DNA of 32,000 nt from Bifidobacterium longum subsp. longum JCM 1217 (GTDB lineage Bacteria; Actinomycetota; Actinomycetes; Actinomycetales; Bifidobacteriaceae): assembly GCF_000196555.1 (NCBI RefSeq), contig NC_015067.1, positions 1,140,001 through 1,172,000 of the forward strand, in the 5' to 3' direction. Made by a program: the position numbers and the translations under genes. The first letter of the stretch is position 1. Each line of letters starts with the position of its first letter. Below are positions 4,840 to 32,000 of the stretch, piece after piece. The notes beneath the pieces are model-generated. The model was not told the DNA's origin, ran no database searches, and was given only the letters and a program-made list of their open reading frames with translations.

Positions 4840-4950
4840 GTTCGAATCCTTTCTTCCGGGACTTCCTCATCCAACCCTCCATCATAGGAAAGAGTGGACC
4901 ATATCCGACGGTCCCGTCTCATCATGCGACGCACGGACCCGCCGGCATGC

Positions 4951-13993: not shown

Positions 13994-14400
13994 GCGGCGT
14001 CCAGGCGGCGCGGGACGCGAACCTGATACGCGCGGAGGCCTTGGTCGCGGTGCGCGCGAAGGCGGAGCGCGGGGATTTCACGCATGCCCTGTCCGACCTG
14101 CTGCGTGACGCGTTGGGATCGAGGCCGCTGCTGCGCCTGCACATCTGGCGTGTCGAACAGGCCGCGTTCGACAATCGGACGGCGACATGCAAACGGCATG
14201 CGCGCATCGCGGCCGGATGGTGCGGGGTGGACGGGGCGCGCGCCGGATCCCTGACGCTCGCCTGGCTGTTGGACGAGCGGACGGGCGGCGCGAGGCTCGC
14301 CGCATGGCTGCTCGCCATCAGCCTGGACATGCGTGACGCGCATGGCGGGCACGCGTTCCGCCTGTCCGGCCCGGACCCGTTCGCGCATGTACGCTCCTAG
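13966..14400 (+). CDS. Hypothetical protein (144 aa)
   Basis: SD ggaggggggg at 13951-13960, 5 nt before ATG 13966. It overlaps the 3' end of the parA-like gene by 28 nt. Confidence 0.5.
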   Translation: MAAMVPDAMSGVQAARDANLIRAEALVAVRAKAERGDFTHALSDLLRDALGSRPLLRLHIWRVEQAAFDNRTATCKRHARIAAGWCGVDGARAGSLTLAWLLDERTGGARLAAWLLAISLDMRDAHGGHAFRLSGPDPFAHVRS

Positions 14401-15347
14401 TCGCTGATCAGGCGGGCGGCCATGGTGCCGAGCTCCCTGATCACGTCGAATTCGGTGACGTCGTTGGCGGCGGCGACCCGTTGGACGGCGCGTTTCAGGT
14501 CGGGCTGCCAGACGCGCCGCCGGCTGGTCTGGGTCGGCCAGTAGAGGCGGACGGCGTCATGCATGCCGGTCCACGGATGCGGGTCGTGTTCGAGGAGTGG
14601 CGCCATGTCCTGCGGGATGGGGGCGAGCATGAGCATGCACGCGGTGTTCGCGTCGAGCCTGTCGAGCGTATGGTCCCACAGGCCCGCGTCGCGTGCGATC
14701 CGGATCGCGTCCTCGCATGTGCCGTCGGTCACGGCGCGCATCATCTGCTCCCTGATCCGGCCGACGGGGCGCGGCACCCTGAGCGTCGGATCGCGTTCGA
14801 ACGGGGCGGACGCCATGCTGCCGCCGGCCACGCTCGTGCTCGACGCGTCGTCGTACACGGGATTATGCCCGTCCTCGGTCTCGAACGCGCTCGCGCTGGG
14901 CGTCCTGGTTTTGAGCACGCGTTTCGCGTTCCACTGGGCGAGCGGCAGGCTGATGCGCCGAACCCATCCGCAGAAGCTGGTGGGTTCGGTCGGATCCCAC
15001 AGGCCGTTCCAGTTCCATTGCGTGCTTTTCGATTCGACGGGCACGCCCGTGATCTTCTCGAACACGCGGACCGTGACCCAGCGGGTCATGGTGTCCCGCT
15101 GCTCCTCGACCGGGTAGAGGCGTCGCATCTCGCCTTCCACGAGGTCGGTCTGCTGCATCCACGCGGCGGCCAGCATCCGTTCCCGGGATCCGAATTCGAC
15201 GGCCCTGTCGGTCCAGTCGATGCCGCGCACATGCCGGTCGAGCTCCTCCCTGGCGGCCGGATCGTCGGCCAGCCTGTGTTTCGGCTTCCATTCGCCCATC
15301 ATGCGTCCGATCGAGGTCGCGATCCCGTGCCGCGCATCCGCCCCCAT
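14397..15347 (-). CDS. Hypothetical protein (316 aa), no family recognised
   Basis: SD gaaaggagg lies 3 nt before ATG 15347. Only this 3' part of the 1500-aa track ORF reads like protein; the rest is antisense to two well-supported plus-strand genes. Confidence 0.6.
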   Translation of the reverse strand: MGADARHGIATSIGRMMGEWKPKHRLADDPAAREELDRHVRGIDWTDRAVEFGSRERMLAAAWMQQTDLVEGEMRRLYPVEEQRDTMTRWVTVRVFEKITGVPVESKSTQWNWNGLWDPTEPTSFCGWVRRISLPLAQWNAKRVLKTRTPSASAFETEDGHNPVYDDASSTSVAGGSMASAPFERDPTLRVPRPVGRIREQMMRAVTDGTCEDAIRIARDAGLWDHTLDRLDANTACMLMLAPIPQDMAPLLEHDPHPWTGMHDAVRLYWPTQTSRRRVWQPDLKRAVQRVAAANDVTEFDVIRELGTMAARLISD

Positions 15348-15364
15348 CGGCCTCCTTTCACGCG

Positions 15365-15390
15365 CGCGTATGCGTTCCGGGGCATAGGGG
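15365..15390. promoter_or_regulatory. Divergent pair of the recurrent motif
   Basis: The minus copy, ggaacgcaTACGCG, precedes SD and ATG 15347. The plus copy reads ggggcaTAGGGG + 5 nt + ATG 15396. Confidence 0.5.
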
Positions 15391-15395
15391 CGGGC

Positions 15396-17765
15396 ATGTG
15401 GTTCGAACTGGTTCCCGCGCCGCGCGCGGATGAGACGGATGACGATGTGAGGTTCCAGCGTGACGCGAAGGCCATGGCCGACGCGATCGGCTTGTCGTCG
15501 CGTCCCGGATGGCTGGACTGGTGGAGGCATGACGACGGGTGCCGGCTCGTGGCGGCCGGCGAACGCCGGTGGGTGGAGGTGTCCGACCGGTACGGGCAGA
15601 AGGCGGGCGAACTGGTCGCCCGTGCGGCGCACGCGTCGATTCGCGCGTGCGGGCGGCCGGACGTGCTGGACCGTCCCCGCGTGTGGGCGCACGCGTTCGT
15701 CCCGATCAGCGCGTCCCTGGCGCGTACGGCGCGCGACGGGGAGCCGAGCATGGAGCGTCCCCGCCTGGATGCGGGCGAGGACACGGTGATCGTGGTGAAC
15801 GTGCGCCGGCTCGGCTGGGTCGAGTCGGGCCGCCTGTCGGATTGGCTGGGCGACGAGTACAACATGCAGGCGGACACGTCGAAGCTCAGGGGCGAGGGGT
15901 TGGGCGCGTGCCGTGTGATGGCGGGCGGCGCGGATCCGCGCACGGCGATGGATCAGGCGAAGCGGGCGGCGAACGCGTTGAACCTGGGCCTGGTGCCGGG
16001 CCTGTCCGCGCATGTGAGCCGTCCCGGCCTGGGGTTCCTCCTGTGCATGCTCCTCCTGACGGCCGTGTCCGTGCCTGCCGTCCTGCTCCTGCCCGCCGCG
16101 CCCGCCTGGCTCATGACCGTCCCCGCGTTCATGCTCGCCGGGACGGCGGGGGCGGTCGTGCGTTGGCGTCTGCGCCATGATCCCGTGAACGATCTGGCTC
16201 AGAGGCCCCGCCATTACTGGTGGCGTGCGCGCAGACGGTGGGCGCGCGCCGCGGATTTGAAGACCCGGATGGCGGGCGACGATCAGAACGCGGACGGGCC
16301 GGGCCGGAAGCGGCGCGTCCACGCGTACGCGTTCCAACGGTCCACGCTGCCGTTGCCGTGCGGCGCGCTGGCCGCCCTGGCGGTCCCGTCGGGACGGCGC
16401 AACGCGTCGGTGAGCGCGCTGACGGTCATGCCCGACCAGTTGGACGGGTGCGACGGGCCCATACTGGGCGTGGACGCGGAACGGCGCACGGTGCGCATGA
16501 GCGTGGACGCGTTGTACGGCGGCGTGTTCCTCATGGGCGAGCCTGGCGGCGGGAAAAGCAACATGATGCATGGGGTGGCCGGGTGGATGGGCGGCCGGCA
16601 TCGGACGGGCGACGTGCTCGTCGACTTCGAATCGAAGGGCGTGGACGCGCAGCCCGTGCTGAAGCGTCTCATCCCGGGCCTGCTCGTCGTGGACGTGAAC
16701 GATCCGGGCACGCCGATGATCGACCTGCTGGGCGCCGGGTCGAACGTGGAGCGTGCGGGCCGGTTCGCGGATCTCATGCAGGCCGCGTTGGGCGTCCAGC
16801 AGATCGGCCCCCAGTCGCGCATCCAGTTGCGTGACGCGACGTTCGTCGCCCTGGAGGGTCTGGCGGCGGCGGATCTGGGGGCGCGGTGCAACGCGTGCTC
16901 CGTTCCCGTGCCGGATGGCTGGGTCGAATATGCGGCGCGCCTTTTGGGACGTAACGGGGTGATGGATGCGCGCATGCTGGGCCGTGCGAGCGTGTTCGCG
17001 TGCGACACGCGTGGGGTGCGGGACGCGGTGGAGCGATTGCATGGCGGCGTGTCGGACAAGGGGACGCCGAAGATCCGCGACGGGGAGCTTGCCGGCCTGC
17101 TGCGCGCGCCCATGAACAAGATGGACGTGCTCGCGTCCGCGGGCCGCGTGTTCGCGCCGTCCCGGCGCGTCCTGTCCTGGGCGTCCGTGATCCGCCGGTC
17201 CGCGCATGCGGGCGACGTGCGCATCATGGTCAACCTGGGCGCCGCGATCCGGACGGGCGCGGACGGCCGGCATGCGGATCTGCCCGACGGGGCGCGCCGT
17301 CTGATCGGCGCGCTCCTGTTCCGCGGCCTGAAGGACGAGATCGTCGCCTCCTGCGCGGGCTGGCAGGCGCGGGGGCGTGCGGCGCGCATCCTGGTCGACG
17401 AGCTGACGGACGTGCTGGGCGCGGACGGCGACACGGGTGGCGGCAACGCGGACATCCTCGCCTGGCTGCGTGAGAAGGGGCGCGCGTACGGCGTGCAGCT
17501 GGTGGCGGGCACGCAGAACGCGGTCCAGTTGGAGGGCGGGCTGCTCGCCTCGGTGACCGGCCTGATGACGGTCGGCACGTTCGTGTTGCGCGCGGATCTG
17601 ACGGCGGGCCCGTCCGCCGTGGCGGTCGGGTCGGATCCGGCGACGGTGCGCGGCCTGCCGTTGCACACGGTGCTGGTGCGCACGGTCGGCCCTCCCCCGG
17701 ACATGGCGGGCCTGCCTCCCATGATCCTGTCCGTCCCCCATTTCGACGCGGGCGCGCCCGTGTGA
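15396..17765 (+). CDS. TraD/TraG/VirD4-like type IV coupling protein ATPase
   Basis: Two hydrophobic segments (LGFLLCMLLLTAVSVPAVLLL and LMTVPAFMLAGTAGAVV). Walker A FLMGEPGGGKSN, Walker B ARILVDELTD, then REKGRAYGVQLVAGTQNAVQL, which fits the R..G....Q..QL pattern of T4CPs. Confidence 0.75.
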   Translation: MWFELVPAPRADETDDDVRFQRDAKAMADAIGLSSRPGWLDWWRHDDGCRLVAAGERRWVEVSDRYGQKAGELVARAAHASIRACGRPDVLDRPRVWAHAFVPISASLARTARDGEPSMERPRLDAGEDTVIVVNVRRLGWVESGRLSDWLGDEYNMQADTSKLRGEGLGACRVMAGGADPRTAMDQAKRAANALNLGLVPGLSAHVSRPGLGFLLCMLLLTAVSVPAVLLLPAAPAWLMTVPAFMLAGTAGAVVRWRLRHDPVNDLAQRPRHYWWRARRRWARAADLKTRMAGDDQNADGPGRKRRVHAYAFQRSTLPLPCGALAALAVPSGRRNASVSALTVMPDQLDGCDGPILGVDAERRTVRMSVDALYGGVFLMGEPGGGKSNMMHGVAGWMGGRHRTGDVLVDFESKGVDAQPVLKRLIPGLLVVDVNDPGTPMIDLLGAGSNVERAGRFADLMQAALGVQQIGPQSRIQLRDATFVALEGLAAADLGARCNACSVPVPDGWVEYAARLLGRNGVMDARMLGRASVFACDTRGVRDAVERLHGGVSDKGTPKIRDGELAGLLRAPMNKMDVLASAGRVFAPSRRVLSWASVIRRSAHAGDVRIMVNLGAAIRTGADGRHADLPDGARRLIGALLFRGLKDEIVASCAGWQARGRAARILVDELTDVLGADGDTGGGNADILAWLREKGRAYGVQLVAGTQNAVQLEGGLLASVTGLMTVGTFVLRADLTAGPSAVAVGSDPATVRGLPLHTVLVRTVGPPPDMAGLPPMILSVPHFDAGAPV

Positions 17766-17807
17766 CGCATACCCGGGTCGCAAACCGTTGTTTTGTGTGG
17801 AAAGGAC

Positions 17808-18884
17808 ATGATGGTGAGGGTATTGGTCGATGCGAGGGAGTTCGCGAACATGGTCGCGCATGCGGCGCGCGTGCTGGAGCGCGACAACCCGTATGTCGCG
17901 TTGGATGCCGCGGATGACGGCCTGGCGATCGGCGCGGCGGGCGACAGCCAGTGGTCGCATGGCCGTGTGGACGCGACCGTCCTGGAGGCGGGTTCCGCGG
18001 TCGTGTCGGGCCTGTGGCTGAACGCGTTGGCGAACGCGATGCCGTCGGGCGAGATCGGCGTGGAGGCGGATGGCGTGTATCTGACGTTGCGTGGCGGCGA
18101 GGCGTCGCTGCGCATGCGTGTGGGCGATGAGGGGGATCGTCCGGCCGAACCGGCCGCCCCGGAGCGGATGGTGCCCGTGGATGCCGACGCGTACGCCGCG
18201 TTGTGCGGCAGCGTCGCCCCGGAGGCGGGCGGCACGAGGGACCAGCCGGTCCTCGCGTCCGTCAGGTTCGTCGCGGCCGGCGGCCTGCTGACGGCGACGG
18301 CCACGAACCGGTACATGGCCGGCCGCAGGTCCATCCCGGTCGGCGGCGTGCCGGACGGCGAATGGCTGGCGGACGCGGATTGGGTGAAACGCAATGCGAA
18401 GGGGGTGAACGCGATCGGGTTCACGGACCGGATGATGGTTGTGGATACGGGTGGGTTCACGGACGCGATCATGCTGACCGCCGGACAGTATCCGATGGTG
18501 GACCGCCTGTTCGACAGGCCGGGGGATCCGGCGGGCGTGGCGGTCGTGGACAGGCGCGCCCTGATGGATGCGGCGCGCATGCTGAAAAGCGTCTGCTTCG
18601 ACTCGCGCATGGGCATCATCCCGCTGATCCTGGACGAGCGGGACGGGATGCTTCGCGTCCGGTATGCGGGCGACGGGCAGGATGCGGATTCGCAGGGCGT
18701 GCGTCTCCTGGAGGCGGACATCACCGGGGATGTGGACGTGAAACTGAACGCGGATTACCTGCTGACCGTGCTTGCGGGCATGGATGCGGACAGGGTGTCG
18801 GTGGTGAAGACCCGTGAAATGAAGCCCGTCCTGTTCGAACAGGACGATTCCGCGGTGGAGCATTTGGTGATGCCCGTCCGTTAG
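17808..18884 (+). CDS. dnaN: DNA polymerase III beta-subunit (sliding clamp) homologue
   Basis: About 360 aa. The C-terminal signature is LNADYLLTVLAGMDADRVSVVKTREMKPVLFEQDD...HLVMPVR, and there is a TNRYM string. The exact start is ambiguous (ATG 17808 or 17811, or GTG 17814) after ggaaagga at 17799-17806. Confidence 0.75.
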   Translation: MMVRVLVDAREFANMVAHAARVLERDNPYVALDAADDGLAIGAAGDSQWSHGRVDATVLEAGSAVVSGLWLNALANAMPSGEIGVEADGVYLTLRGGEASLRMRVGDEGDRPAEPAAPERMVPVDADAYAALCGSVAPEAGGTRDQPVLASVRFVAAGGLLTATATNRYMAGRRSIPVGGVPDGEWLADADWVKRNAKGVNAIGFTDRMMVVDTGGFTDAIMLTAGQYPMVDRLFDRPGDPAGVAVVDRRALMDAARMLKSVCFDSRMGIIPLILDERDGMLRVRYAGDGQDADSQGVRLLEADITGDVDVKLNADYLLTVLAGMDADRVSVVKTREMKPVLFEQDDSAVEHLVMPVR

Positions 18885-18941: not shown

Positions 18942-18967
18942 GTAGATGACTTTGTTTTAGCTTGTCG

Positions 18968-20269
18968 CTAGAGCGAAGTCATCTGCATGGCCTCGTTGCC
19001 GAGACCAGCTCCAAGCCTCACGCGGCTCTCGCCGCCGCTTGGTTCGCGTTTCACAGGGGTCGGCATTGTCCGACTGCTGCCGGTCTGTCTTACGTCCCCT
19101 CCACGCGCGTTTAACGTCTCCGGGGCACTCCCGGCGACTTGGATGTTGATGGCCGCGTTCAGATCGCGGTCGATGACAAGCCCGCACTCCTCGCAATGGT
19201 AGACGCGCTCGGACAGGGACAGTTTGGCTTTCACCGTCCCGCAGCTCGAGCATGTCTTGCTGCTTGGATACCAGCGGTCGATGACGTGGAGCCTCGCGCC
19301 GGCGCGTGCGGTCTTGTAGGTCAGTAGACGTCGGAACTCCGCGAACGCGGCGTCCTGAATCGATTGGGCGAGCCCGTGGTTCTTGACCATGCCCGCCACG
19401 TTCAAGTCCTCGATGCCGATGTCCGCGTAGGCATGGGCGAGCATGGTGGTGGTCTTGTCCAGTAGGTCGCGGCGTAGGTCCGCCACGCGGGCGTGCAGAC
19501 GCGCGACTCTCGTTCTCGCCTTGCGGCGGCGGTTGGAGCCTTTCCGTTTGCGGCTCAGATTCTTCTGTTCCCGCCTCAATCGTCTGAGGTTCGAGTCCAA
19601 CGCGCGTGGATTGCGGATGATGGTGCCGTCTGACAGTGTGGCGAGCTGTTTCACACCCAAATCGATGCCGACACTACCACCTTTCAGCGGCGTGGGCATC
19701 GGACCATCCTTGCGCTCGACGGTCAAACTCGCCATCCAGCGTCCCGCATGCCGGGATACGCTCATGCGCAGTATCTTCGCGCCATCCACCCGCTTGGATA
19801 CGTTCTCCATGCAATGCACGCGGCCTATCTTCGGGAGCCGCAGCGCATAAGGGTCATAGTCAATGAGACCAAACGAACCCGTCGTGTACGCGAAGCGGGG
19901 TGTCGCCCTGTCCTTGGACTTGAATCGGGGGAAGCCGACCCTGCGCCCCTTCCTCAATCCCTTGCGAGACTTCGACCAGTTCGACAGCGCGTCCGCCAAA
20001 GACTTAAGACCAGCGTTGTACGCCTCCTTACTGTTCTTCCGCCACCACGTTTCGCCCGTCACGGCGTTGACGGCGAGCGTGCCCTTGGCCTGATTCCACC
20101 ACCCGCGCAGCGCGTAGTATGACCATTCCGGCTTCTCCTGCCGTTCAAGCATGTCCTTGACGTGCGCCAGTCCCGCGTTGTACGCGAATCGCGCCGCACC
20201 AGCATGGGACTCCAAGAGTCGTTCCTGCCGTGGCGTCGGGTCGAGCGCCACCTTGACCGCCTCAAGCAT
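18968..20269 (-). CDS. tnpB: TnpB (OrfB) RuvC-type RNA-guided endonuclease
   Basis: OrfB_IS605-type N-terminus (VALDPTPRQERLLESHAGAARFAYNAG). RuvC motifs are GIDLGV, IGIEDLNV and DRDLNAAINI. Zinc finger is CSSCG...CEECG. All catalytic positions appear intact. Confidence 0.9.
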   Translation of the reverse strand: MLEAVKVALDPTPRQERLLESHAGAARFAYNAGLAHVKDMLERQEKPEWSYYALRGWWNQAKGTLAVNAVTGETWWRKNSKEAYNAGLKSLADALSNWSKSRKGLRKGRRVGFPRFKSKDRATPRFAYTTGSFGLIDYDPYALRLPKIGRVHCMENVSKRVDGAKILRMSVSRHAGRWMASLTVERKDGPMPTPLKGGSVGIDLGVKQLATLSDGTIIRNPRALDSNLRRLRREQKNLSRKRKGSNRRRKARTRVARLHARVADLRRDLLDKTTTMLAHAYADIGIEDLNVAGMVKNHGLAQSIQDAAFAEFRRLLTYKTARAGARLHVIDRWYPSSKTCSSCGTVKAKLSLSERVYHCEECGLVIDRDLNAAINIQVAGSAPETLNARGGDVRQTGSSRTMPTPVKREPSGGESRVRLGAGLGNEAMQMTSL

Positions 20270-20483
20270 CGCGTGCCGCCCTCAACGCCGCGTCCGTCTT
20301 GTGCTTGGCGGCACGCCTTCCGTACAGTCTCGCGCAGAACGAGGTCAGCACCTCGGTCATATCGCGCACCAAATCGTCATCCAGTCCCGTGTCATCCACC
20401 ACGATGATTCGGCGTCCCTGCGCCTTCAACGCGCTCTCCACCAAGCCCGCGTTCATACGGGCGAGCCTGTCGCGATGCTCCAC
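20262..20483 (-). pseudogene. tnpA: 5'-truncated IS607-type serine recombinase tnpA (only about the last 75 aa)
   Basis: (LIV)EHRDRLARMNAGLVESALKAQGRRIIVVDD...LTSFCARLYGRRAAKHK matches the C-terminal part of IS607 TnpA. The MerR-like HTH and catalytic Ser region are absent. It overlaps the tnpB start, as is typical for IS607. Confidence 0.7.
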
Positions 20484-23781: not shown

Positions 23782-25161
23782 ATGCCGTTCAATCCTTTCG
23801 CCGCCGGTCCCGCCGAACCCGTCGCGGAGCCGTCGCCGGCGGAGCCGGCCGATGGGGGCGCGACGCGGGAATCCGACGTCGACGACGGCTGGTGGGATTT
23901 CGGGAGCGGACCGGATGCGGCGGACGCGACGCCGGACCCCGATCCGGCGGACGCCGCGGCGGACGACGGCCGGCGGGATGCGGACGGGAGGGGCGGGCGA
24001 TCCGAAGACGCGCCCGATCCCATGCCGGACGACGGGGCGGACGACGACTGGTGGGGCATGGCCTCCGATGCGGGAGGGGACGACGCGCCCCCGGCCCGGA
24101 CGGCGCGGGACCCCGCCGGACCCGCCGCCCATGCGGGCGACGACACGGATGCGGACGACGACTGGTGGGGCATGGCCGGCGGGGAGGCCATGCCGGGCCC
24201 GCCGGCCGGGATCCCGGCGCGCACGGGGACGGACGAGACCCCCGGCATGGACGCGGACGACGACTGGTGGGGCATGGCCGGCGGGGACGGGCCGCGATCC
24301 GACGACGCCGATCCGACGCCGCGGCTCGTCAGCGTGCCCGGCACCAGCGTGCGCATCCCCGCGGACTTCGACTGGGGCACCGACACCCCCGCGGCCGGGC
24401 CGGCCGACGGCGTGCGGGAGCCCGCCCCGGCCCCCGCACGCCGGCCCGGCCCGTCGCGCCGCATCCTCATCGCCGCCACGGCCGCCATCCTCGCCCTCGC
24501 CCTCCTGGCGGGCGGCGTCGTCGCGGCGCGCACGCTCATCGCCTCCGACCGGCAGCGGAAGGCCCACGACGAGGCGTGCGCGACGCTCACCGCGCAGGCC
24601 GGAACATGGGACGGGCTCGCACGGCAGGCGAAGACGCTCGGCGTGAAACCCGGCGACGGGCCCGACACGTCCTGCAAGGCGGACACGGACACGCTCAGGG
24701 CCCGGGCCCGCACGCTCAAGGCCCGAGCCCGCACCCTCGCCAGGGCGAACCGGAACGCGCTGGACGCCGCATGGGAAAACCTGTCCGGCCGGATCGCGGC
24801 AAGCCGCAAGAACCATCCGAAGGCCGGCGGGCAGACGCTCGCCGCGCTCGAAACGCTCGCCGAGACCGCGCCCGAGGACGCGGACGGCCTGGCCGCGAAG
24901 GAACGCGAATTCGAACGGCTCGACAAGCAGGCCGGACGGGAGCAGCAGCAGGCCGAACAGGAGGAGAAGGCGGAGGCCGAGGCGCGACAGGAGGCCGAAC
25001 GGGAGGCCGAGGCGCGACGGGAGGCCGAGGCGCAGGACACGCCCCAGACCGCCGCCCCCACGCCGGCGCCCATGCCGCAGACCACCCCCACGCCGGCCCC
25101 GCAGCCCACGCCGACACCCACACCCACACCGGCGCCCGGCAACGCGGACGCCAGCATGTGA
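23782..25161 (+). CDS. Single-pass membrane protein: acidic N-terminal region with four DD(D/G)WW(G/D) repeats, one TM, a coiled coil, and a Pro/Thr-rich tail
   Basis: Repeats are DDGWWDFG and DDDWWGMA(S/G) x3. The 24-nt DNA repeat gacgacgactggtggggcatggcc occurs three times. TM is ILIAATAAILALALLAGGVVAA. The tail reads EQQQAEQEEKAEAEARQEAEREAEARREAEA followed by TPTPAPQPTPTPTPTPAP. Confidence 0.7.
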   Translation: MPFNPFAAGPAEPVAEPSPAEPADGGATRESDVDDGWWDFGSGPDAADATPDPDPADAAADDGRRDADGRGGRSEDAPDPMPDDGADDDWWGMASDAGGDDAPPARTARDPAGPAAHAGDDTDADDDWWGMAGGEAMPGPPAGIPARTGTDETPGMDADDDWWGMAGGDGPRSDDADPTPRLVSVPGTSVRIPADFDWGTDTPAAGPADGVREPAPAPARRPGPSRRILIAATAAILALALLAGGVVAARTLIASDRQRKAHDEACATLTAQAGTWDGLARQAKTLGVKPGDGPDTSCKADTDTLRARARTLKARARTLARANRNALDAAWENLSGRIAASRKNHPKAGGQTLAALETLAETAPEDADGLAAKEREFERLDKQAGREQQQAEQEEKAEAEARQEAEREAEARREAEAQDTPQTAAPTPAPMPQTTPTPAPQPTPTPTPTPAPGNADASM

Positions 25162-25176: not shown

Positions 25177-25437
25177 ATGAACGACGCATACGAACGACTC
25201 ACCATCGGCCAGGCGCAGACCCTGGCCCGCATCATCGACGGCCTGCGCGACCACGGGTTCGACCCCGACGGGCAGGGCATCCACACGCCCAACCTGCACG
25301 TCGAACCCGGGGACGGGACACGCGTCAACTGGTGGCTCGACGGCGACACGGCGTTCGCCAACGGCAGCATGGACGCGCAGGGGCACGGCGTATGGTGGAC
25401 GCGCCGCGCCTACGCGCCCACCCTGCGACGCTCCTAA
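25177..25437 (+). CDS. Small hypothetical protein (86 aa)
   Basis: An ORF with a motif-positioned start. Its stop overlaps the stop of the convergent VirB4-like gene. Confidence 0.5.
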   Translation: MNDAYERLTIGQAQTLARIIDGLRDHGFDPDGQGIHTPNLHVEPGDGTRVNWWLDGDTAFANGSMDAQGHGVWWTRRAYAPTLRRS

Positions 25438-28400
25438 TCCAGGGAACCGTCGACGCGCACCACCACCGGGATCGCGCTCGCCGCATCCCCCACCTGCAGG
25501 TAGGCGACCGACCCGCGCAGCAGCCCGCCCGTCTCCGGATCCCTCAACGGGTACAGGCTCTCCCAGTCCGGGGCCCGGGAATCCGGATCCACATACCTGT
25601 CATGCATCATGCGCGCATGCATGCGCCCGTCCAACGGCTGGTTCGCGAGCCGGCAGGCGGCCTGCGCCTGGCTGTCGCGGCCCGAACCCTCGTTGCGGGC
25701 CCCCACGGCCAGCACGTACACCTTGCCGACGAAATCCTCGATCCCCGCGTCCACGAACTCGTCGGCCTTCTGGGAGAGCATCATCACCATGTAATGCTGG
25801 TCGCGGGCCAGACGGCCCATACGGTCGACGACGCTCCGGCCGAACCGGTCCTGCAGCAGGCTCCACGCCTCGTCGATGACGACGGCCCCGTTGCGGCCGA
25901 TCACCAGGCAGGAGGCGCCCAGCGCGGCCATGCGGCACACCCAGCGCTGCACGTCGGTGGGCGCGCCCTGGATCTCCTTGTCGGTGATCACGTTCAACGA
26001 GCCCGCGCTGATCAGGGTCATGCCCTGGCTCAGGGACAGGCGGCGCCCGCCCGGCTCCGTCCCGTAGATGAGCGGCATCAACGGGTCGTTCTTGACGGCA
26101 CGGTCCAACACGGGCCGGATCCTTTCGACGAGCGGGTCGATGTCCTTCGCCTCCCGCCCCCTATGGGAATACTCCTCCCAGGCGAGGCGCACGCATTCGC
26201 CCAGACAGTCGGCGCCGTGGCGCAAACCGTAGCCGACGATGCTGGACACGCCCATCTCCCAGGCGCGGTCCGGGTTCGCGCCGCCCGTGATCTGGCTGAG
26301 CATCGCGACCGACGTCTGCACGATCGTGTCCGTCATATGCCTGGGGATGCAGCGCAGCGGGTCGAGGATGCCGCGCGCCTCCGGCCGGTCGAGCTTGACG
26401 ACCACGCCGCCGCGTTTCCTCACGAACGGTTCGAAGTCGGATGATTTCGGTTTCGGATCCCAGAAGACGACGGGGATCTGCACGCCGGGATGCTCGGGGT
26501 CGGGCAGACGCCCCCATTGGGCGGCGACATGCAGGCCGAGCCGGGTGTTATGCGTGGGCACGTAGCCGCCGATCAGGTACGTGCGATCGGGGCTGGCAAT
26601 GCTCAGACAACGGTGCGGGCAGTCGGCGATCGGCCGGATGCCTTTCACGTACAGCCATTTCGAGGTCTCACGCAATTCAGTGGGGAGAAGCGCGCGTTTG
26701 CGCGGCAGGGAGAACACGGGCAGGCTTGTGGTGAACGTGAGGCGCAGACGGTCGCGGGTCTCGTGGCGTTCCCCGTCCGCCGTGTATCCGGCCTTCGTGC
26801 GGGTGGCCTCGTGCACGACGACGCCCAGGGAGCGCAGAAGACGGGTCAGCCCGTCGACGATCGGCTTGTGGTCGATGGACTGGGTGAACTCGACGCTCCC
26901 GTTCCGGTCGATGGCGCCGTCCTGGTCGAGCAGGCCTCGCACGAGTTCGAGCCTCTGTTCGACATCGGCATGGAAATAGGGTTCGGGGATGTGCTTGTCG
27001 CCGTAAAGCCCGTTCGCCCGGAGCTGTCGGACAAGGCGTTTCGCGTAGGTCTTCTGCGGGTCGCACGCACTCCGGGTGACCTCGTATCCGGCGGTTCGCA
27101 GACGGTTCTCCAGATGGTCGAGGTCGCCGTTCGACGGGTCGGAAGCGAAGCCGCCGCCGGTCTTCGACCCGTCAGCCAGCCATGCGCCGAGCGTCCACGG
27201 GTCGATGGGCAGGTCCGTGCGGACGCCCTGGACGGGGGCCGTGGCGCGGATCGCCCAGTTCGCCTGCCCGCCGTCGGCGAGCAGCCCCTCGTCGAGCATC
27301 TCGCGGGTGGTGACGGTCTGTTCGCCGTGTCCGGACCCGGGTTCGTCCCGGTACCGCCAGCCGATGCGGTCGGCGAGGCGGGCGAGGGCGAGCGGCGCGG
27401 GCCATGCGACGCGCATGCGACGGGCCGTTCCCGCAGGCTCCGCCCGCGGCCCGTCGTAGGATCTCAGGGCGGACTCGAACGCGCCTTTCGATACGCCGAG
27501 GTCCCCGAACCGTTCCAGGAGCCAAGCCGTGTCGATCGGTTCGGCGGGAGGGTCGGCGATGAGCCCGTCGAGCCTGGCGAGCCGCAGCGCCCTGGCTTCG
27601 ACCCCGAAACCGTTGCCGACGGTGTGCTCCCACCTGTCGCGGATGTGCCCGAGCAGCGGGGCGGGCTCGTAGAAGCGTCCCCCGGGCCTGTTGCGCGCCC
27701 TGCCGGGCTGCATGCGGGAGGGCACGTCGGCGAAGCGGAGCGCGTTCCTCACCCACGTCTCCCCGCCCTTGCCCGCGAACGGCGCGACGAGGGGCCGGAC
27801 CTCGCGCCAGATGCGTTCGCAGTCCCACCATTCGTCCATGCCGTGTCCGGCGGCCATGGCGCGCAGCCGTTCCTGCGCCTTCCGGACCCGTTCGCGGCGT
27901 TCGAGGCTCTTCCGGTGTTTGCCGGTGCGGGCGAAGTTGCGGTCGCGCCATGTCCACGCGCACCATTGATGGTCGCCGCTGGCTTTGATCCTCTGCCCGT
28001 CGGACAGGACGATCTCGTACATGTCGTCGTCACCGATGGGGCTCATGCCGAGAATCGGGTAGGTTTTCCCGTCGCGCGCATAGAGCATGTCGCCGTCCTC
28101 GAGGTCGCGCAACGGCACGAGGCCGCCCTCGGGGAACCTTTTCTGCGGGGGGACGGGGAGAGGCGTGTCGAGGGAAACCGATTTTCCGGATCCTGTGCTG
28201 CCCACGATTATGGAAATCGCTTTCCCGCTGCGTCTGGACGCGGCGAACGGCGAATCGTAGACCGGCTGCCCGTCCGCCTCCGTGACGCCCACGAACGCGC
28301 CCGGCAGGTCGGAGTCCAGGCCGCGCCCCGAATCGTCGCCCGTCATGGAACAGCCCGCGAGCCCGCTGAACGCGAGGATCGGGGCCGGCCAGTACAGGGG

Positions 28401-29582
28401 GGACGGATCGTATTCGATCATGTCGTCGGAACCGATCTGCATGTCCTCGAACGCGGCCTCCTGACGGTCCGGGTTCAACCCGACGTGCCCCGGATAGGGG
28501 ACGCGGTTCGACTGCTCCACGATCATGGGCAGTGCGGCGTGCGCATGCGCCTGGACGAGCGTGGGCCACGGCTTGCCGTCCGCCTGGTATTCGCCGTTCG
28601 CCGCCTCCAGCTCGCGCGCCACGCCCAGGTTCGCCTTGCGGCCGCCCGCCGCCTGCTCGTACGCCTTGTCGAGCACCTTGTCCGCGTCCTTGTCCAATTG
28701 CTCGCGGGTCATCTCCCCCGGTTCGACCAGGCCCTTCACGCTGATCGCGACCGCCCCGCACCGGCTCGCGTCCAGGAGGCCGGCCGCCCAGTCGGAGCCG
28801 GGGGCGGTGTTGTTCTCGCCCTTGAAGGGGAGCACGCCGAGCGTGACCACGGTCAAAGGGTAGGAGCCGGGAATCCTCGCCGACCATTTGCGGCAGTCGT
28901 CGACCTTCTCGCGCATGCGGGCCGCGACGAACGCGGACCGGTAGTCGGGGAACGTGTGCATGTGGTCGTGCTCGACCATGACGGGCAGTCCCTCGGGCTT
29001 GCGGTCGGTGGGCCAGAACGCCATGGCGCGGCGCATCGTCGCGTCGGACGGGATGCGGCAGCCCGCGTCCTCCATGAGGGCGCGCACATCCTCCAGATCG
29101 TGTTCGAACGCGTCGTCGGGCGTCCACCCGTCCTCGTCGGCGACGCCTTTCAGGAACCCTTTCACGCCGCCCTGCCCGCCGCCCGTGTTCAGCCGGACGC
29201 CGAACAGGGTGAACCGGTCGCGCACGGCGAGCCCCTCCTGTTCGGCGGCGAGGCGCAGCCGGTTGTCCGGGTCGAGCGTGGGACTGGGTTCGAAGGGGCG
29301 GGAGCCGCTGACCGCGAGGATGTGGACCCGCCGGTACAGGCCCTTCATGGCCTTGCGTCCGGCGAATGGGACGCGCGGCGTCCGGTCGGCGAGCCCGCCG
29401 AGTATCGACAGCATGGGGCGGGCGGCCTTCAAACGCTCCTCCATGCCGGACGCGTCCGTGACGGACGGCTGGTCGGGCATCCTCATGTACAGCCATGCGG
29501 CGCCGTTGACCGTGCGCACGAACCCGCCGCCCATATGCCGGGCGAACGTGCCCGTCTCCCTGACAATGCGTTTCCTCGTCAT
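25434..29582 (-). CDS. VirB4/TraE-type conjugation (T4SS) ATPase, interrupted by an intein
   Basis: The Walker A motif is split: IIVGSTGSGK | intein | TRLGLHVAAQW. Walker B is GAVVIDEAW, followed by LARDQHYMVMMLSQ. The extein total is about 837 aa, typical for VirB4. The start is leaderless-type (TAGGCG + 6 nt + ATG). Confidence 0.85.
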   Translation of the reverse strand: MTRKRIVRETGTFARHMGGGFVRTVNGAAWLYMRMPDQPSVTDASGMEERLKAARPMLSILGGLADRTPRVPFAGRKAMKGLYRRVHILAVSGSRPFEPSPTLDPDNRLRLAAEQEGLAVRDRFTLFGVRLNTGGGQGGVKGFLKGVADEDGWTPDDAFEHDLEDVRALMEDAGCRIPSDATMRRAMAFWPTDRKPEGLPVMVEHDHMHTFPDYRSAFVAARMREKVDDCRKWSARIPGSYPLTVVTLGVLPFKGENNTAPGSDWAAGLLDASRCGAVAISVKGLVEPGEMTREQLDKDADKVLDKAYEQAAGGRKANLGVARELEAANGEYQADGKPWPTLVQAHAHAALPMIVEQSNRVPYPGHVGLNPDRQEAAFEDMQIGSDDMIEYDPSPLYWPAPILAFSGLAGCSMTGDDSGRGLDSDLPGAFVGVTEADGQPVYDSPFAASRRSGKAISIIVGSTGSGKSVSLDTPLPVPPQKRFPEGGLVPLRDLEDGDMLYARDGKTYPILGMSPIGDDDMYEIVLSDGQRIKASGDHQWCAWTWRDRNFARTGKHRKSLERRERVRKAQERLRAMAAGHGMDEWWDCERIWREVRPLVAPFAGKGGETWVRNALRFADVPSRMQPGRARNRPGGRFYEPAPLLGHIRDRWEHTVGNGFGVEARALRLARLDGLIADPPAEPIDTAWLLERFGDLGVSKGAFESALRSYDGPRAEPAGTARRMRVAWPAPLALARLADRIGWRYRDEPGSGHGEQTVTTREMLDEGLLADGGQANWAIRATAPVQGVRTDLPIDPWTLGAWLADGSKTGGGFASDPSNGDLDHLENRLRTAGYEVTRSACDPQKTYAKRLVRQLRANGLYGDKHIPEPYFHADVEQRLELVRGLLDQDGAIDRNGSVEFTQSIDHKPIVDGLTRLLRSLGVVVHEATRTKAGYTADGERHETRDRLRLTFTTSLPVFSLPRKRALLPTELRETSKWLYVKGIRPIADCPHRCLSIASPDRTYLIGGYVPTHNTRLGLHVAAQWGRLPDPEHPGVQIPVVFWDPKPKSSDFEPFVRKRGGVVVKLDRPEARGILDPLRCIPRHMTDTIVQTSVAMLSQITGGANPDRAWEMGVSSIVGYGLRHGADCLGECVRLAWEEYSHRGREAKDIDPLVERIRPVLDRAVKNDPLMPLIYGTEPGGRRLSLSQGMTLISAGSLNVITDKEIQGAPTDVQRWVCRMAALGASCLVIGRNGAVVIDEAWSLLQDRFGRSVVDRMGRLARDQHYMVMMLSQKADEFVDAGIEDFVGKVYVLAVGARNEGSGRDSQAQAACRLANQPLDGRMHARMMHDRYVDPDSRAPDWESLYPLRDPETGGLLRGSVAYLQVGDAASAIPVVVRVDGSLD
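26547..28181 (-). mobile_element. Intein (545 aa, aa 468-1012 of the ATPase) with a LAGLIDADG homing-endonuclease domain
   Basis: Ser1 begins SVSLDTPLPV...LRDLEDGDMLYARDG (block A). IKASGDHQW is block B. LAGLIDADG motifs are LGAWLADGSKTGG and LVRGLLDQDGAIDRNG. The end is CLSIASPDRTYLIGGYVPTHN followed by +1 Thr. Confidence 0.85.
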
Positions 29583-30907: not shown

Positions 30908-31984
<1,077 letters not shown>

Positions 31985-32000
31985 TCAAGTCGGTGTTTCG

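What the first reader, a model, noticed from the sequence alone, without database searches (positions are those of the whole stretch)
26547..28181. Hint + LAGLIDADG intein inserted exactly in the Walker A P-loop of the VirB4-type conjugation ATPase
The 1382-aa ORF is about 545 aa longer than a VirB4/TraE ATPase should be. Directly after IIVGSTGSGK the sequence switches to S468-VSLDTPLPV...DLEDGDMLYARDG, which resembles intein block A with a Ser1 nucleophile. It continues through IKASGDHQW (block B, S/TxxH) and two LAGLIDADG motifs (LGAWLADGSKTGG and LVRGLLDQDGAIDRNG). It ends in ...TYLIGGYVPTHN1012, followed by T1013. Deleting aa 468-1012 gives GSTGSGK-TRLGLHV, a canonical GxxGxGKT Walker A. 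ATP binding by the T4SS energiser, and therefore transfer of the whole element, would then depend on protein splicing. This is a selfish element nested inside a mobile element. P-loop insertion is an established intein habit. I cannot tell from the sequence alone whether this host protein and insertion site have been catalogued.
Basis: partly seen in the sequence, partly recalled or inferred. Interest (0 to 1): 0.75.

Follow-up and report, generated by a model that had tools for sequence, protein, structure and literature searches.

The report
Class 3 intein splitting VirB4 P-loop

Summary
ORF 25434-29582 (-) encodes 1382 aa, and aa 468-1012 (window 26547-28181) form a 545-aa insert between Lys467 and Thr1013 of the Walker A motif GSTGSGK|T. 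Sixteen intein-free Bifidobacterium/Bombiscardovia homologues (836-864 aa) read GSGK|TR, with a gap that matches the insert exactly.

The insert is an intein. Both ends match mycobacterial DnaB P-loop inteins, the middle matches the PI-SceI endonuclease, and an AF2 model (pLDDT 90) matches PI-SceI and class 3 DnaB inteins. The spliced host models as full-length TrwK/VirB4 (Foldseek E 3e-21).

The mechanism needs revising. Residue 1 is A/R/Q/M/N/G/L in 21 of 22 homologues, and Ala in the 97%-identical cluster representative. His71, Trp73, Cys525, Thr543, His544, Asn545 and Thr+1 are conserved. That is the WCT signature of class 3 inteins, so Cys525 rather than Ser1 is the likely initiating nucleophile.

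Three further points:
- The central region (aa 78-300) has no relatives outside this intein family.
- Intein alleles are mosaic and move independently of the host gene (exteins dS 0.10, intein core 0.92).
- This copy of the element carries IS insertions.

It is a new member of a known kind. K|T P-loop inteins and VirB4 inteins are already catalogued. No paper on a Bifidobacterium example was found.

The parts
25434..29582 (-). Precursor ORF, 1382 aa: VirB4-like (Pfam AAA_10) conjugation ATPase interrupted by an intein. Identical to BAJ66651.1 of B. longum subsp. longum JCM 1217.
28182..29582 (-). N-extein, aa 1-467. It ends in the first seven residues of Walker A, GSTGSGK (28182-28202).
   Evidence: Homologous to the N-terminal part of intein-free homologues. 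The model matches the TrwK/VirB4 N-terminal domain.
26547..28181 (-). Intein, 545 aa (ORF aa 468-1012).
   Evidence: Exact alignment gap in 16 intein-free homologues. PDB sequence hits. AF2 and Foldseek.
27951..28181 (-). N-terminal Hint (splicing) part, intein aa 1-77, blocks A and B. Ser1 is the codon at 28179-28181, His71 (B:10) at 27969-27971 and Trp73 (B:12, the W of WCT) at 27963-27965.
   Evidence: Aligned to Msm/Mch DnaB class 3 inteins, with HQW on HQW. Foldseek rmsd 1.6 A over 76 columns at 30-32% identity to 6bs8/6rix. H71 and W73 are invariant in 37 sequences.
27282..27950 (-). Central, mostly helical region, intein aa 78-300. It is an orphan and is hypervariable between alleles. 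Its function is unknown; a DNA-binding accessory role for the endonuclease is my guess.
   Evidence: phmmer against 1.84 billion representatives gave 4 hits: two in this family, one fragment and one spurious. dS is 0.92 and omega 0.72 against allele P0002. The AF2 model is confident here.
26712..27224 (-). LAGLIDADG homing-endonuclease domain, about intein aa 320-490. Motif 1 is LGAWLADGS (27165-27191, Asp337). Motif 2 is LVRGLLDQDG (26916-26945, Asp421). Lys396 is at 26994-26996.
   Evidence: PI-SceI sequence match over aa 394-474, E 4e-4. Sub-threshold Pfam Hom_end and LAGLIDADG_3. Foldseek matches to PI-SceI, PI-PfuI and I-DmoI. D337, G338, K396, D419, D421 and G422 are invariant. Omega is 0.27 for aa 404-493.
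26547..26669 (-). C-terminal Hint part, intein aa 505-545, blocks F and G. Cys525 (F:4, predicted initiating nucleophile) is at 26607-26609 and Thr543 (G:5) at 26553-26555. His544-Asn545 end the intein.
   Evidence: Aligned to pvRCveV...vPTHN of 6rix/6bs8, so Cys525 corresponds to Msm DnaBi1 Cys118 (PMC6195587, PMC5222942). C525, T543, H544 and N545 are at least 90% conserved.
25434..26546 (-). C-extein, aa 1013-1382, plus the stop codon. Thr1013 (26544-26546) is both the +1 splicing nucleophile and the Walker A Thr. Walker B-like VVIDEAW is at 25863-25883.
   Evidence: Pfam AAA_10 covers aa 1060-1286 of the precursor and spans the junction (aa 457-741) once the intein is removed. The DEAW region aligns to the TrwK Walker B region.

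Best explanation
The segment is a bifunctional intein: a Hint splicing domain, a LAGLIDADG homing endonuclease, and an orphan central region. [quoted passage not shown]

Shown:
- The insertion is exact.
- Intein-free alleles exist.
- The insert has an intein fold.
- The spliced host has a VirB4 fold.
- The WCT set of residues is conserved while residue 1 is not.

Inferred mechanism (class 3 splicing):
1. Cys525 (block F:4), helped by His71, Trp73 and Thr543, attacks the Lys467-Ser468 peptide bond and forms a branched thioester.
2. The N-extein is passed to the side chain of Thr1013.
3. Asn545 cyclises and releases the intein.
4. An O-N shift restores GSTGSGK-T, giving an 837-aa ATPase that can bind ATP.

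The unspliced precursor has a split P-loop and should be inactive, so VirB4 function needs splicing.

At the DNA level the endonuclease would cut intein-free alleles at the P-loop codons and copy the intein in (homing). Near-identical host genes that carry very different, mosaic intein alleles show that the intein or its modules move independently of the host gene.
For: Insertion and intein-free alleles:
- The gap is exact and GK|T is restored in 16 intein-free homologues.
- Intein-free locus L001 (Bifidobacterium sp. SO1) has the same neighbours: PIF1 helicase upstream and DUF2637 downstream.

Intein identity:
- phmmer against PDB matched insert aa 4-75 and 511-545 to mycobacterial DnaB inteins 6rix/6riy/6bs8 (E 1e-5 to 6e-5), and aa 394-474 to PI-SceI (E 4e-4).
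- The AF2 model has pLDDT 90.3.
- Foldseek gave PI-SceI at E 3e-15 (TM 0.61-0.65 on the target), TliVMA, PI-PfuI, class 3 DnaB inteins at rmsd 1.6 A, and I-DmoI.

Class 3:
- Residue 1 is A10/R4/Q3/M/N/G/L/S1 in 22 homologues.
- H71 and W73 are invariant; C525, T543, H544 and N545 are at least 90% conserved.
- The +1 residue is Thr in all.
- The residues correspond to experimentally required His65, Trp67, Cys118, Thr137 and Asn139 of Msm DnaBi1 (PMC6195587, PMC5222942, PMC2807308).
- The nearest relatives outside the family are DnaB P-loop inteins and inteins in phage terminases, a Toprim-domain protein, a PD-(D/E)XK nuclease and a DUF3987 protein. These overlap the hosts reported for class 3 inteins of mycobacteria and their phages: DnaB, terminase and RecB (PMC5050341).

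Host:
- The spliced extein matches Pfam AAA_10 across the junction.
- Its AF2 model (pLDDT 80.6) matches full-length TrwK/VirB4 of R388 (E 3e-21) and then Thermoanaerobacter VirB4.
- The neighbourhood holds an FtsK/SpoIIIE-like ATPase, a lysozyme+CHAP hydrolase, DUF2637, ParA-like and PIF1-like genes, and a protein with a weak PrgA-type surface-exclusion hit.

Mobility:
- The window and P0002 have 98% identical exteins (dS 0.10) but 63% identical inteins. dS is 0.92-1.37 in three intein modules.
- P0003 and P0004 have about 100% identical exteins but 65% identical inteins.
- P0025 has lost the endonuclease domain.
Against: - No experiment shows splicing or endonuclease activity.
- This particular allele does have Ser1, so an N-O acyl shift at Ser1 (class 1-like) cannot be excluded for it. 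[quoted passage not shown]
- Pfam and NCBIfam Hint models did not match, and the endonuclease profile hits are below the curated thresholds.
- The fold evidence rests on AF2 models, and I could not inspect the active-site geometry.
- NCBIfam's VirB4_CagE model scores far below its cut-off (12.8 against 643 bits), so 'VirB4' rests on fold and Pfam AAA_10, not on the curated subfamily.
- This copy of the element carries two IS insertions, one truncating the adjacent PIF1-like helicase gene. Transfer of this copy, and therefore present selection on splicing here, is uncertain.
Confidence: 0.8

Rival explanations
1. It is a canonical class 1 intein. Ser468 (Ser1) starts splicing by an N-O acyl shift, followed by transesterification to Thr+1.
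For: This allele does begin with Ser, and one distant homologue, P0036, also has Ser1. Block B has Ser at B:7 and His at B:10 here. A few WCT inteins with Ser1 or Cys1 were known and mechanistically unresolved in 2010 (PMC2807308).
Against: - 21 of 22 homologous inteins have a non-nucleophilic residue 1, including Ala in the 97%-identical cluster representative.
- Codons 1-3 are a local hotspot of variation inside otherwise 98%-identical DNA.
- Position F:4 is Cys, not the Asp usual in class 1, and the WCT triplet is conserved.
- B:7 is not conserved.
- The closest solved relatives are proven class 3 inteins.
Confidence: 0.1
2. It is a dead or non-splicing relic. The insert is a decayed intein, the interrupted VirB4 gene is functionless, and both sit in a decaying element.
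For: The element copy in the window carries an IS605/IS607-type insertion and a 5'-truncated PIF1-like gene. In chromosome CP049767.1 the element is cut down to a few genes. One homologue, P0025, has lost its endonuclease domain, and P0019 looks frameshifted in the C-extein.
Against: - The ORF is intact over 1382 codons.
- All splicing and endonuclease catalytic residues are kept across homologues down to 33% identity.
- The exteins are under strong purifying selection (omega 0.05-0.15), and so is the endonuclease half aa 404-493 (omega 0.27).
- Intein-containing alleles are the commonest in the database, roughly 3790 against 650 member sequences by my sum.
Confidence: 0.07
3. It is a domesticated regulatory switch. 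This extends the best explanation and does not replace it. Splicing would be conditional, for example blocked by oxidation or metal binding at the catalytic Cys525, so that conjugation is gated after translation in this anaerobe.
For: The related class 3 DnaB P-loop intein is reversibly inhibited by H2O2 through a Cys48-Cys118 disulfide, and by zinc (PMC6195587, PMC7360933). This allele has a second Cys (Cys521) four residues before Cys525, and Cys74 next to Trp73.
Against: Cys521 and Cys74 are not conserved in homologues. The intact endonuclease and the mosaic, horizontally exchanged alleles point to a selfish, mobile lifestyle. There are no experimental data.
Confidence: 0.1

Closest known systems
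Mycobacterial DnaB-b / DnaBi1 class 3 inteins (M. smegmatis 6bs8, M. chimaera 6rix, M. leprae DnaB)
   Same: Same insertion position in a P-loop, after the Walker A Lys and before the Ser/Thr. The flanks are similar too: GxGK|(S/T)xLGL. Same WCT triplet, HQW block B and (R)C(V/L)xV...PTHN blocks F/G. They share 30-32% identity and 1.6 A rmsd over the N-terminal Hint part (PMC6195587, PMC5222942).
   Different: The host is a replicative helicase, not a T4SS ATPase. The solved ones are 139-145-aa mini-inteins without an endonuclease, whereas this one is 545 aa with an apparently intact LAGLIDADG domain and a roughly 220-aa orphan region. The +1 residue is Thr here and Ser there. Residue 1 is Ser in this allele and Ala there.
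Mycobacteriophage Bethlehem DnaB intein (class 3 prototype)
   Same: WCT triplet, Thr+1 and a Ser at B:7 that is not needed. Class 3 inteins are linked to phages and other mobile elements (PMC2807308; PMC5050341).
   Different: It is 341 aa, sits in a phage DnaB-like protein and has a non-nucleophilic residue 1. It has been characterised experimentally, whereas this one has not. No direct alignment was made here.
PI-SceI (yeast VMA1 intein)
   Same: It is the best overall structural match to the model (E 3e-15). The architecture is the same: a Hint domain with an inserted LAGLIDADG endonuclease and extra DNA-recognition parts. The endonuclease sequence matches at E 4e-4.
   Different: It is a class 1 intein (Cys1) in a eukaryotic V-ATPase host, with about 12% identity. 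The central region of the present intein has no counterpart in it.
Catalogued inteins in T4SS components: VirB4/COG3451 inteins (5, in Firmicutes and Proteobacteria) and the Burkholderia vietnamiensis IcmO class 3 intein
   Same: An intein nested in a type IV secretion or conjugation protein of a mobile element (PMC4760082, PMC2807308, PMC5222942).
   Different: Those are in other phyla, and Actinobacteria are not listed for VirB4. Their insertion sites could not be checked because the supplementary tables are not held. The IcmO intein is a mini-intein with Cys+1, and its site is not at a GK|T junction.
Mycobacteriophage terminase TerL1-a inteins
   Same: [quoted passage not shown] Terminase inteins are among the relatives of this intein.
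   Different: The host family and the kind of mobile element differ (phage packaging ATPase).

Membership tests
Intein (Hint-domain protein-splicing element) | An in-frame insert that is absent from orthologues, with the host sequence continuous across the junction | tested here: met
   16 intein-free homologues read GSGK|TR with a gap equal to aa 468-1012. Pfam AAA_10 spans the junction after removal.
Intein (Hint-domain protein-splicing element) | Splicing blocks A, B, F and G and a Hint fold | tested here: met
   PDB sequence hits to DnaB inteins at both ends. Foldseek matches to PI-SceI and the DnaB, gp41-1 and Prp8 inteins. However, no Pfam or NCBIfam Hint profile hit.
Intein (Hint-domain protein-splicing element) | C-terminal His-Asn followed by a Cys/Ser/Thr +1 nucleophile | tested here: met
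   ...VPTHN|T; conserved in the family.
Intein (Hint-domain protein-splicing element) | Protein splicing actually occurs | not testable with these tools
   Needs expression followed by western blot or mass spectrometry.
Class 3 intein | WCT triplet: Trp B:12, Cys F:4, Thr G:5 | tested here: met
   Trp73, Cys525 and Thr543. They align to Trp67, Cys118 and Thr137 of Msm DnaBi1.
Class 3 intein | No Ser/Thr/Cys at intein position 1 | tested here: inconclusive
   This allele has Ser1, so the criterion is not met literally. Of 22 homologues, 21 have A/R/Q/M/N/G/L, and the 97%-identical representative has Ala1. WCT inteins with Ser1 or Cys1 are known (PMC2807308).
Class 3 intein | Thr or Ser at +1 | tested here: met
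   Thr1013; Thr in all family members.
Class 3 intein | Absolute requirement for the block F Cys; branched intermediate at F:4 | not testable with these tools
   Needs C525A and S1A mutants.
LAGLIDADG (DOD) homing endonuclease | Two LAGLIDADG helices with catalytic acidic residues, in a pseudo-dimeric fold | tested here: met
   LGAWLADGS (Asp337) and LVRGLLDQDG (Asp421), invariant in 37 sequences. Foldseek matches to PI-SceI, PI-PfuI and I-DmoI. Pfam Hom_end and LAGLIDADG_3 score only below their cut-offs.
LAGLIDADG (DOD) homing endonuclease | Cleaves the intein-free allele (homing) | not testable with these tools
   Indirect support only: intein alleles are discordant with the exteins.
VirB4-type T4SS ATPase | Two-domain VirB4 fold with a C-terminal RecA-like ATPase carrying Walker A and B | tested here: met
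   Foldseek match to full-length TrwK/VirB4 at E 3e-21 over about 880 columns, then Thermoanaerobacter VirB4. Walker A is restored, and the DEAW region aligns to the TrwK Walker B region.
VirB4-type T4SS ATPase | Match to curated family models | tested here: inconclusive
   Pfam AAA_10 is above its cut-off (29.3-31.6 against 27.5). AAA_10 is used as the VirB4-like marker for actinobacterial ICEs in PMC3218068. NCBIfam VirB4_CagE scores 12.8 against a cut-off of 643, and TcpF 11.6 against 1100.
VirB4-type T4SS ATPase | Encoded with other conjugation genes | tested here: met
   FtsK/SpoIIIE-like ATPase, lysozyme+CHAP hydrolase, DUF2637, ParA-like and PIF1-like genes, and a weak surface-exclusion hit. 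No relaxase was identified.

The most novel reading that the evidence does not exclude
The intein is more than a selfish passenger. As a class 3 intein whose initiating nucleophile is an oxidation- and metal-sensitive internal cysteine, it could act as a post-translational switch that lets the T4SS ATPase mature only under reducing (anaerobic gut) conditions. The fast-evolving, allele-specific orphan central region and the variable endonuclease module could set different homing specificities, or mediate competition between co-resident variants of the element.
Probability: 0.08. Interest if true: 0.7.

Novelty: new member of a known kind. Interest (0 to 1): 0.4.

Why it matters
- Annotation. 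A protein labelled 'hypothetical phage protein' in the type strain of B. longum, and present in hundreds of gut metagenome assemblies, is a VirB4-like conjugation ATPase that must excise a 545-aa intein to regain its ATP-binding loop.
- Nested mobile elements. It is a clean natural case of a mobile element (the intein) inside a mobile element (the ICE) in a key human gut commensal. DNA evidence shows that intein alleles recombine or home independently of their host gene.
- Intein biology. It adds a large, endonuclease-bearing class 3 intein with a Ser1/Ala1 polymorphism between near-identical alleles. That polymorphism is a natural test of whether position 1 matters in class 3 splicing.
- Scope. 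None of this changes current concepts. P-loop K|T inteins, class 3 chemistry and inteins in T4SS ATPases are all established.

Tried and rejected
- Pfam and NCBIfam scans of the insert found no Hint model and only sub-threshold endonuclease models. They cannot be used as positive evidence, and this explains the poor public annotation.
- A profile of intein-free homologues searched against PDB sequences gave only a weak TrwK hit (E 0.14). The fold search was needed.
- The genome-contig scan with the extein profile returned only 5 loci, all intein-free, so it gave no species-wide census.
- The supplementary tables of Novikova et al. are not held, so the insertion sites of the catalogued VirB4 inteins could not be compared.
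- An exhaustive search with the central region (aa 78-300) found no relatives outside the family. The P0130 hit is a eukaryotic mesothelin-like protein and was rejected as spurious.
- Literature searches for intein + Bifidobacterium, B. longum + homing endonuclease, and intein + conjugative + T4SS + P-loop found no description of this intein.
- I considered a prophage context because sources call the protein a 'phage protein'. I rejected it because the genes that could be assigned a family are conjugation-type and none is a phage structural or packaging gene.
- I considered Cys521/Cys525 as a redox pair. I did not adopt it because Cys521 is not conserved.
Full report
**1. The observation**

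The window holds an intact 1382-codon ORF on the minus strand, 25434-29582. Codons 468-1012 correspond exactly to the reported coordinates 26547-28181.
- GSTGSGK at aa 461-467.
- An insert starting SVSLDTPLPVP.
- DHQW at intein aa 70-73.
- LGAWLADGS at aa 331-339 and LVRGLLDQDG at aa 413-422.
- HRCLSI at aa 523-528.
- VPTHN at aa 541-545, followed by Thr1013.

Removing the segment gives GSTGSGK-TRLGLHV, a GxxGxGKT Walker A. Base composition and GC3 of the insert (0.69 and 0.87) are close to those of the flanks (0.69-0.70 and 0.91).

**2. It is an insertion, not a lineage-specific domain**

A search of the protein collection found two kinds of close relatives.
- About 22 clusters are 1279-1469 aa long.
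- 16 clusters are 836-864 aa long. They come from Bifidobacterium sp. SO1, Bombiscardovia coagulans and metagenomes. A genome scan added B. cuniculi, B. canis, B. animalis and B. castoris.

In the alignment the short proteins read G.GK|T(R/Y/T) and have one gap that coincides exactly with aa 468-1012. The intein-free gene of Bifidobacterium sp. SO1 lies in the same gene neighbourhood: a PIF1-like helicase and a small gene upstream, DUF2637 downstream.

With the insert removed, the Pfam AAA_10 match lengthens and crosses the junction. It covers aa 457-741 of the spliced protein, whereas in the precursor it starts only at aa 1060.

**3. The insert is an intein with a homing endonuclease**

Pfam and NCBIfam did not recognise a Hint domain. 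They gave only sub-threshold Hom_end and LAGLIDADG_3 hits. The other evidence is stronger.
- Sequence search against PDB chains matched both ends of the insert (aa 4-75 and 511-545) to the mycobacterial DnaB inteins 6rix, 6riy and 6bs8 (E 1e-5 to 6e-5). It matched aa 394-474 to the PI-SceI endonuclease (E 4e-4).
- An AlphaFold2 model built on 37 aligned sequences is confident (mean pLDDT 90.3).
- Its best structural neighbours are PI-SceI (E 3e-15), the TliVMA, PI-TkoII and PI-PfuI inteins, the class 3 DnaB inteins 6bs8/6rix (rmsd 1.6 A, 30-32% identity over the N-terminal splicing part), and the free-standing LAGLIDADG enzyme I-DmoI.
- Both LAGLIDADG acidic residues (Asp337, Asp421), Lys396 and the neighbouring glycines are invariant in the 37-sequence alignment.

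**4.

Across 22 intein-containing cluster representatives, residue 1 is Ala (10), Arg (4), Gln (3), Met, Asn, Gly, Leu and Ser (1). The representative of the window's own 90% cluster, which is 97% identical, has Ala.

At the DNA level the first three intein codons differ completely between the window and allele P0002 (TCGGTTTCC against CGTATCCAG), inside flanks that are 98% identical. Block B position 7 also varies.

What is conserved is His71 and Trp73 (block B:10 and B:12, invariant), Cys525 (F:4), Thr543 (G:5), His544 and Asn545 (at least 90%), and Thr+1. This is the Trp-Cys-Thr triplet with Thr/Ser+1 that defines class 3 inteins (PMC2807308, PMC5050341).

In the pairwise alignments these residues fall on His65, Trp67, Cys118, Thr137, His138 and Asn139 of the M. 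smegmatis DnaBi1 intein. There Cys118 is the proven initiating nucleophile (PMC6195587, PMC5222942).

I therefore infer the class 3 pathway. Cys525 attacks the Lys467-Ser468 bond, the N-extein passes to Thr1013, Asn545 cyclises, and an O-N shift follows.

Strictly, the criterion 'no nucleophile at position 1' is not met by this allele. WCT inteins beginning with Ser or Cys are known and were left unresolved in PMC2807308. A contribution of Ser1 in this allele therefore cannot be excluded without an S1A and C525A experiment.

**5. The host protein and its setting**

The spliced 837-aa protein was modelled with pLDDT 80.6. Its best structural matches are the full-length TrwK/VirB4 subunits of the R388 type IV secretion system (E 3e-21 to 1e-16, about 880 aligned columns). 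Next come the VirB4 C-terminal domain of Thermoanaerobacter, and only then DndH, HerA, EccC and FtsK.

Pfam AAA_10 is above threshold. The same model has been used as the VirB4-like marker of T4SS-type ICEs in Actinobacteria (PMC3218068). The curated NCBIfam VirB4_CagE and TcpF models are far below their cut-offs. 'VirB4-like' is therefore justified, but membership of those subfamilies is not.

Around the gene lie:
- an FtsK/SpoIIIE-family 1096-aa ATPase, a candidate coupling protein;
- a Phage_lysozyme2+CHAP cell-wall hydrolase;
- DUF2637, ParA-like, PD-(D/E)XK, DnaN-like and PIF1-like genes;
- a CAP-domain protein with a weak SEC10/PgrA surface-exclusion match.

No relaxase was recognised. 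No phage structural or packaging gene was recognised among the ORFs that could be assigned a family, although several large ORFs had no hit at all.

The exact protein is BAJ66651.1 of B. longum subsp. longum JCM 1217, named 'hypothetical phage protein'. UniRef calls it a 'DOD-type homing endonuclease domain-containing protein'. It occurs in 422 blocks of the assembly collection.

**6. Extra findings about the intein**

(a) The central region is an orphan. Intein aa 78-300 is a confidently modelled, mostly helical region between block B and the endonuclease. An exhaustive phmmer search of 1.84 billion representative proteins found only family members, one fragment and one spurious eukaryotic hit. 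It has no detectable relatives outside this family.

(b) Intein alleles are mosaic and do not track the host gene.
- The window and P0002 have exteins that are 98% identical (dS 0.10, omega 0.05-0.15), but inteins that are only 63% identical.
- Three intein modules are very divergent: aa 61-283 (dS 0.92), aa 344-403 (0.92) and aa 494-523 (1.37).
- Modules at 85-98% nucleotide identity lie between them.
- P0003 and P0004, from a cluster with B. breve members, have about 100% identical exteins and 65% identical inteins.
- The intein types pair across the two backgrounds: the window with P0003, and P0002 with P0004.

This pattern requires horizontal replacement or recombination of intein sequence. 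It fits homing.

(c) The endonuclease half aa 404-493 is under purifying selection (omega 0.27).

(d) One homologue, P0025, has lost the endonuclease domain (431-aa intein). This is the usual decay stage of the homing cycle.

(e) Outside the family, the nearest inteins sit at the DnaB P-loop (GxGK|STLGL, compared with GSGK|TRLGL here). Others sit in phage terminases, a Toprim-domain protein, a PD-(D/E)XK nuclease and a DUF3987 protein. This agrees with the proposed phage-linked spread of class 3 inteins (PMC5050341).

**7. Function and caveats**

With the P-loop split by 545 residues, the precursor should not bind ATP. This is an inference, by analogy with P-loop inteins discussed in PMC6195587. 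VirB4 activity then needs splicing.

Whether the whole element's transfer depends on it is plausible but unproven. This copy of the element is probably impaired anyway.
- Window 18942-20482 is a 1.5-kb IS605/IS607-type insertion that is absent from otherwise 99%-identical loci.
- The PIF1-like gene is truncated at its 5' end. The sequence matches a chromosome in which an IS21 element lies directly upstream.

**8. Comparison with what is known, and novelty**

- Insertion between the Walker A Lys and Thr is called the 'classic' P-loop intein site (PMC5050341).
- Class 3 chemistry is well characterised.
- Inteins in VirB4 (five, in Firmicutes and Proteobacteria) and in the T4SS protein IcmO are already listed (PMC4760082, PMC2807308).
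- I found no paper describing an intein in Bifidobacterium or in an actinobacterial VirB4-like ATPase. The searchable library is incomplete, and the relevant supplementary tables were not available.

The finding is therefore a new member of a known kind. Three features would interest specialists: its size, with an orphan region; the natural Ser1/Ala1/Arg1 polymorphism; and clear evidence of allele exchange.

**9. Verdict**

- It is wrong on the nucleophile and splicing class.
- It is somewhat optimistic on novelty.
- Interest is moderate.

Noticed in passing
window 18942-20482: A 1.5-kb insertion relative to the otherwise 98.5-99% identical loci L002/L003. It holds an IS605-family TnpB/OrfB gene (18968-20269, -) and an apparent C-terminal fragment of an IS607-type serine recombinase (20262-20483, -). 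The recombinase call rests on reading the translation; no search was run on it. GC is about 0.62, against about 0.70 in the surroundings.
   Followed up: partly
window 30908-32000: The PIF1-like helicase ORF is 351 aa here but 451 aa in L002/L003. The window diverges from those loci at 31975. It stays 100% identical to chromosome CP049767.1 (L004), where an IS21 element (IstA/IstB) lies directly upstream. The gene is therefore truncated at its 5' end.
   Followed up: partly
window 28173-28181 (intein codons 1-3): The first three intein codons differ completely between near-identical alleles (SVS against RIQ; AVS in the 97%-identical representative). The DNA on either side is 98% identical. [quoted passage not shown]
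   Followed up: partly
window 27282-27950 (intein aa 78-300): The helical central region of the intein has no detectable relatives outside this intein family among 1.84 billion representative proteins. It is the most divergent part between alleles (dS 0.92, omega about 0.7).
   Followed up: yes
window 17766-18884 (+): The element encodes its own DnaN-like sliding-clamp paralogue (TIGR00663 at 49.8 bits, below the cut-off; Pfam DNA_pol3_beta_3 just below threshold).
   Followed up: no
window 23782-25161 (+): A 459-aa ORF with several acidic DDDWWGMA-type repeats, an apparent hydrophobic segment and a Pro/Thr-rich tail. It has no family hit. It corresponds to the 425-aa gene called next to the ATPase gene in L003.
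   Followed up: no
window 1918-4866 (-): A 982-aa CAP-domain protein with a weak, sub-threshold match to the SEC10/PgrA surface-exclusion domain of Gram-positive conjugative plasmids.
   Followed up: no
P0057-P0067 and P0036/P0037 (related proteins, not in the window): A second, more distant AAA_10 ATPase lineage (C-extein TMAAF / TVAAL) also carries a WCT intein ending in PTHN. One member is annotated as from B. longum. In P0036 and P0037, the only full-length members examined, the intein sits at the same GK|T position. P0057-P0067 are partial sequences in which only the C-terminal junction was seen.
   Followed up: no
L004 (CP049767.1) 14149-15700: In this complete B. longum-type chromosome the element ends shortly after the ATPase gene and runs into housekeeping genes (LysM, NrdR). 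The intein-bearing gene there is part of a remnant.
   Followed up: no
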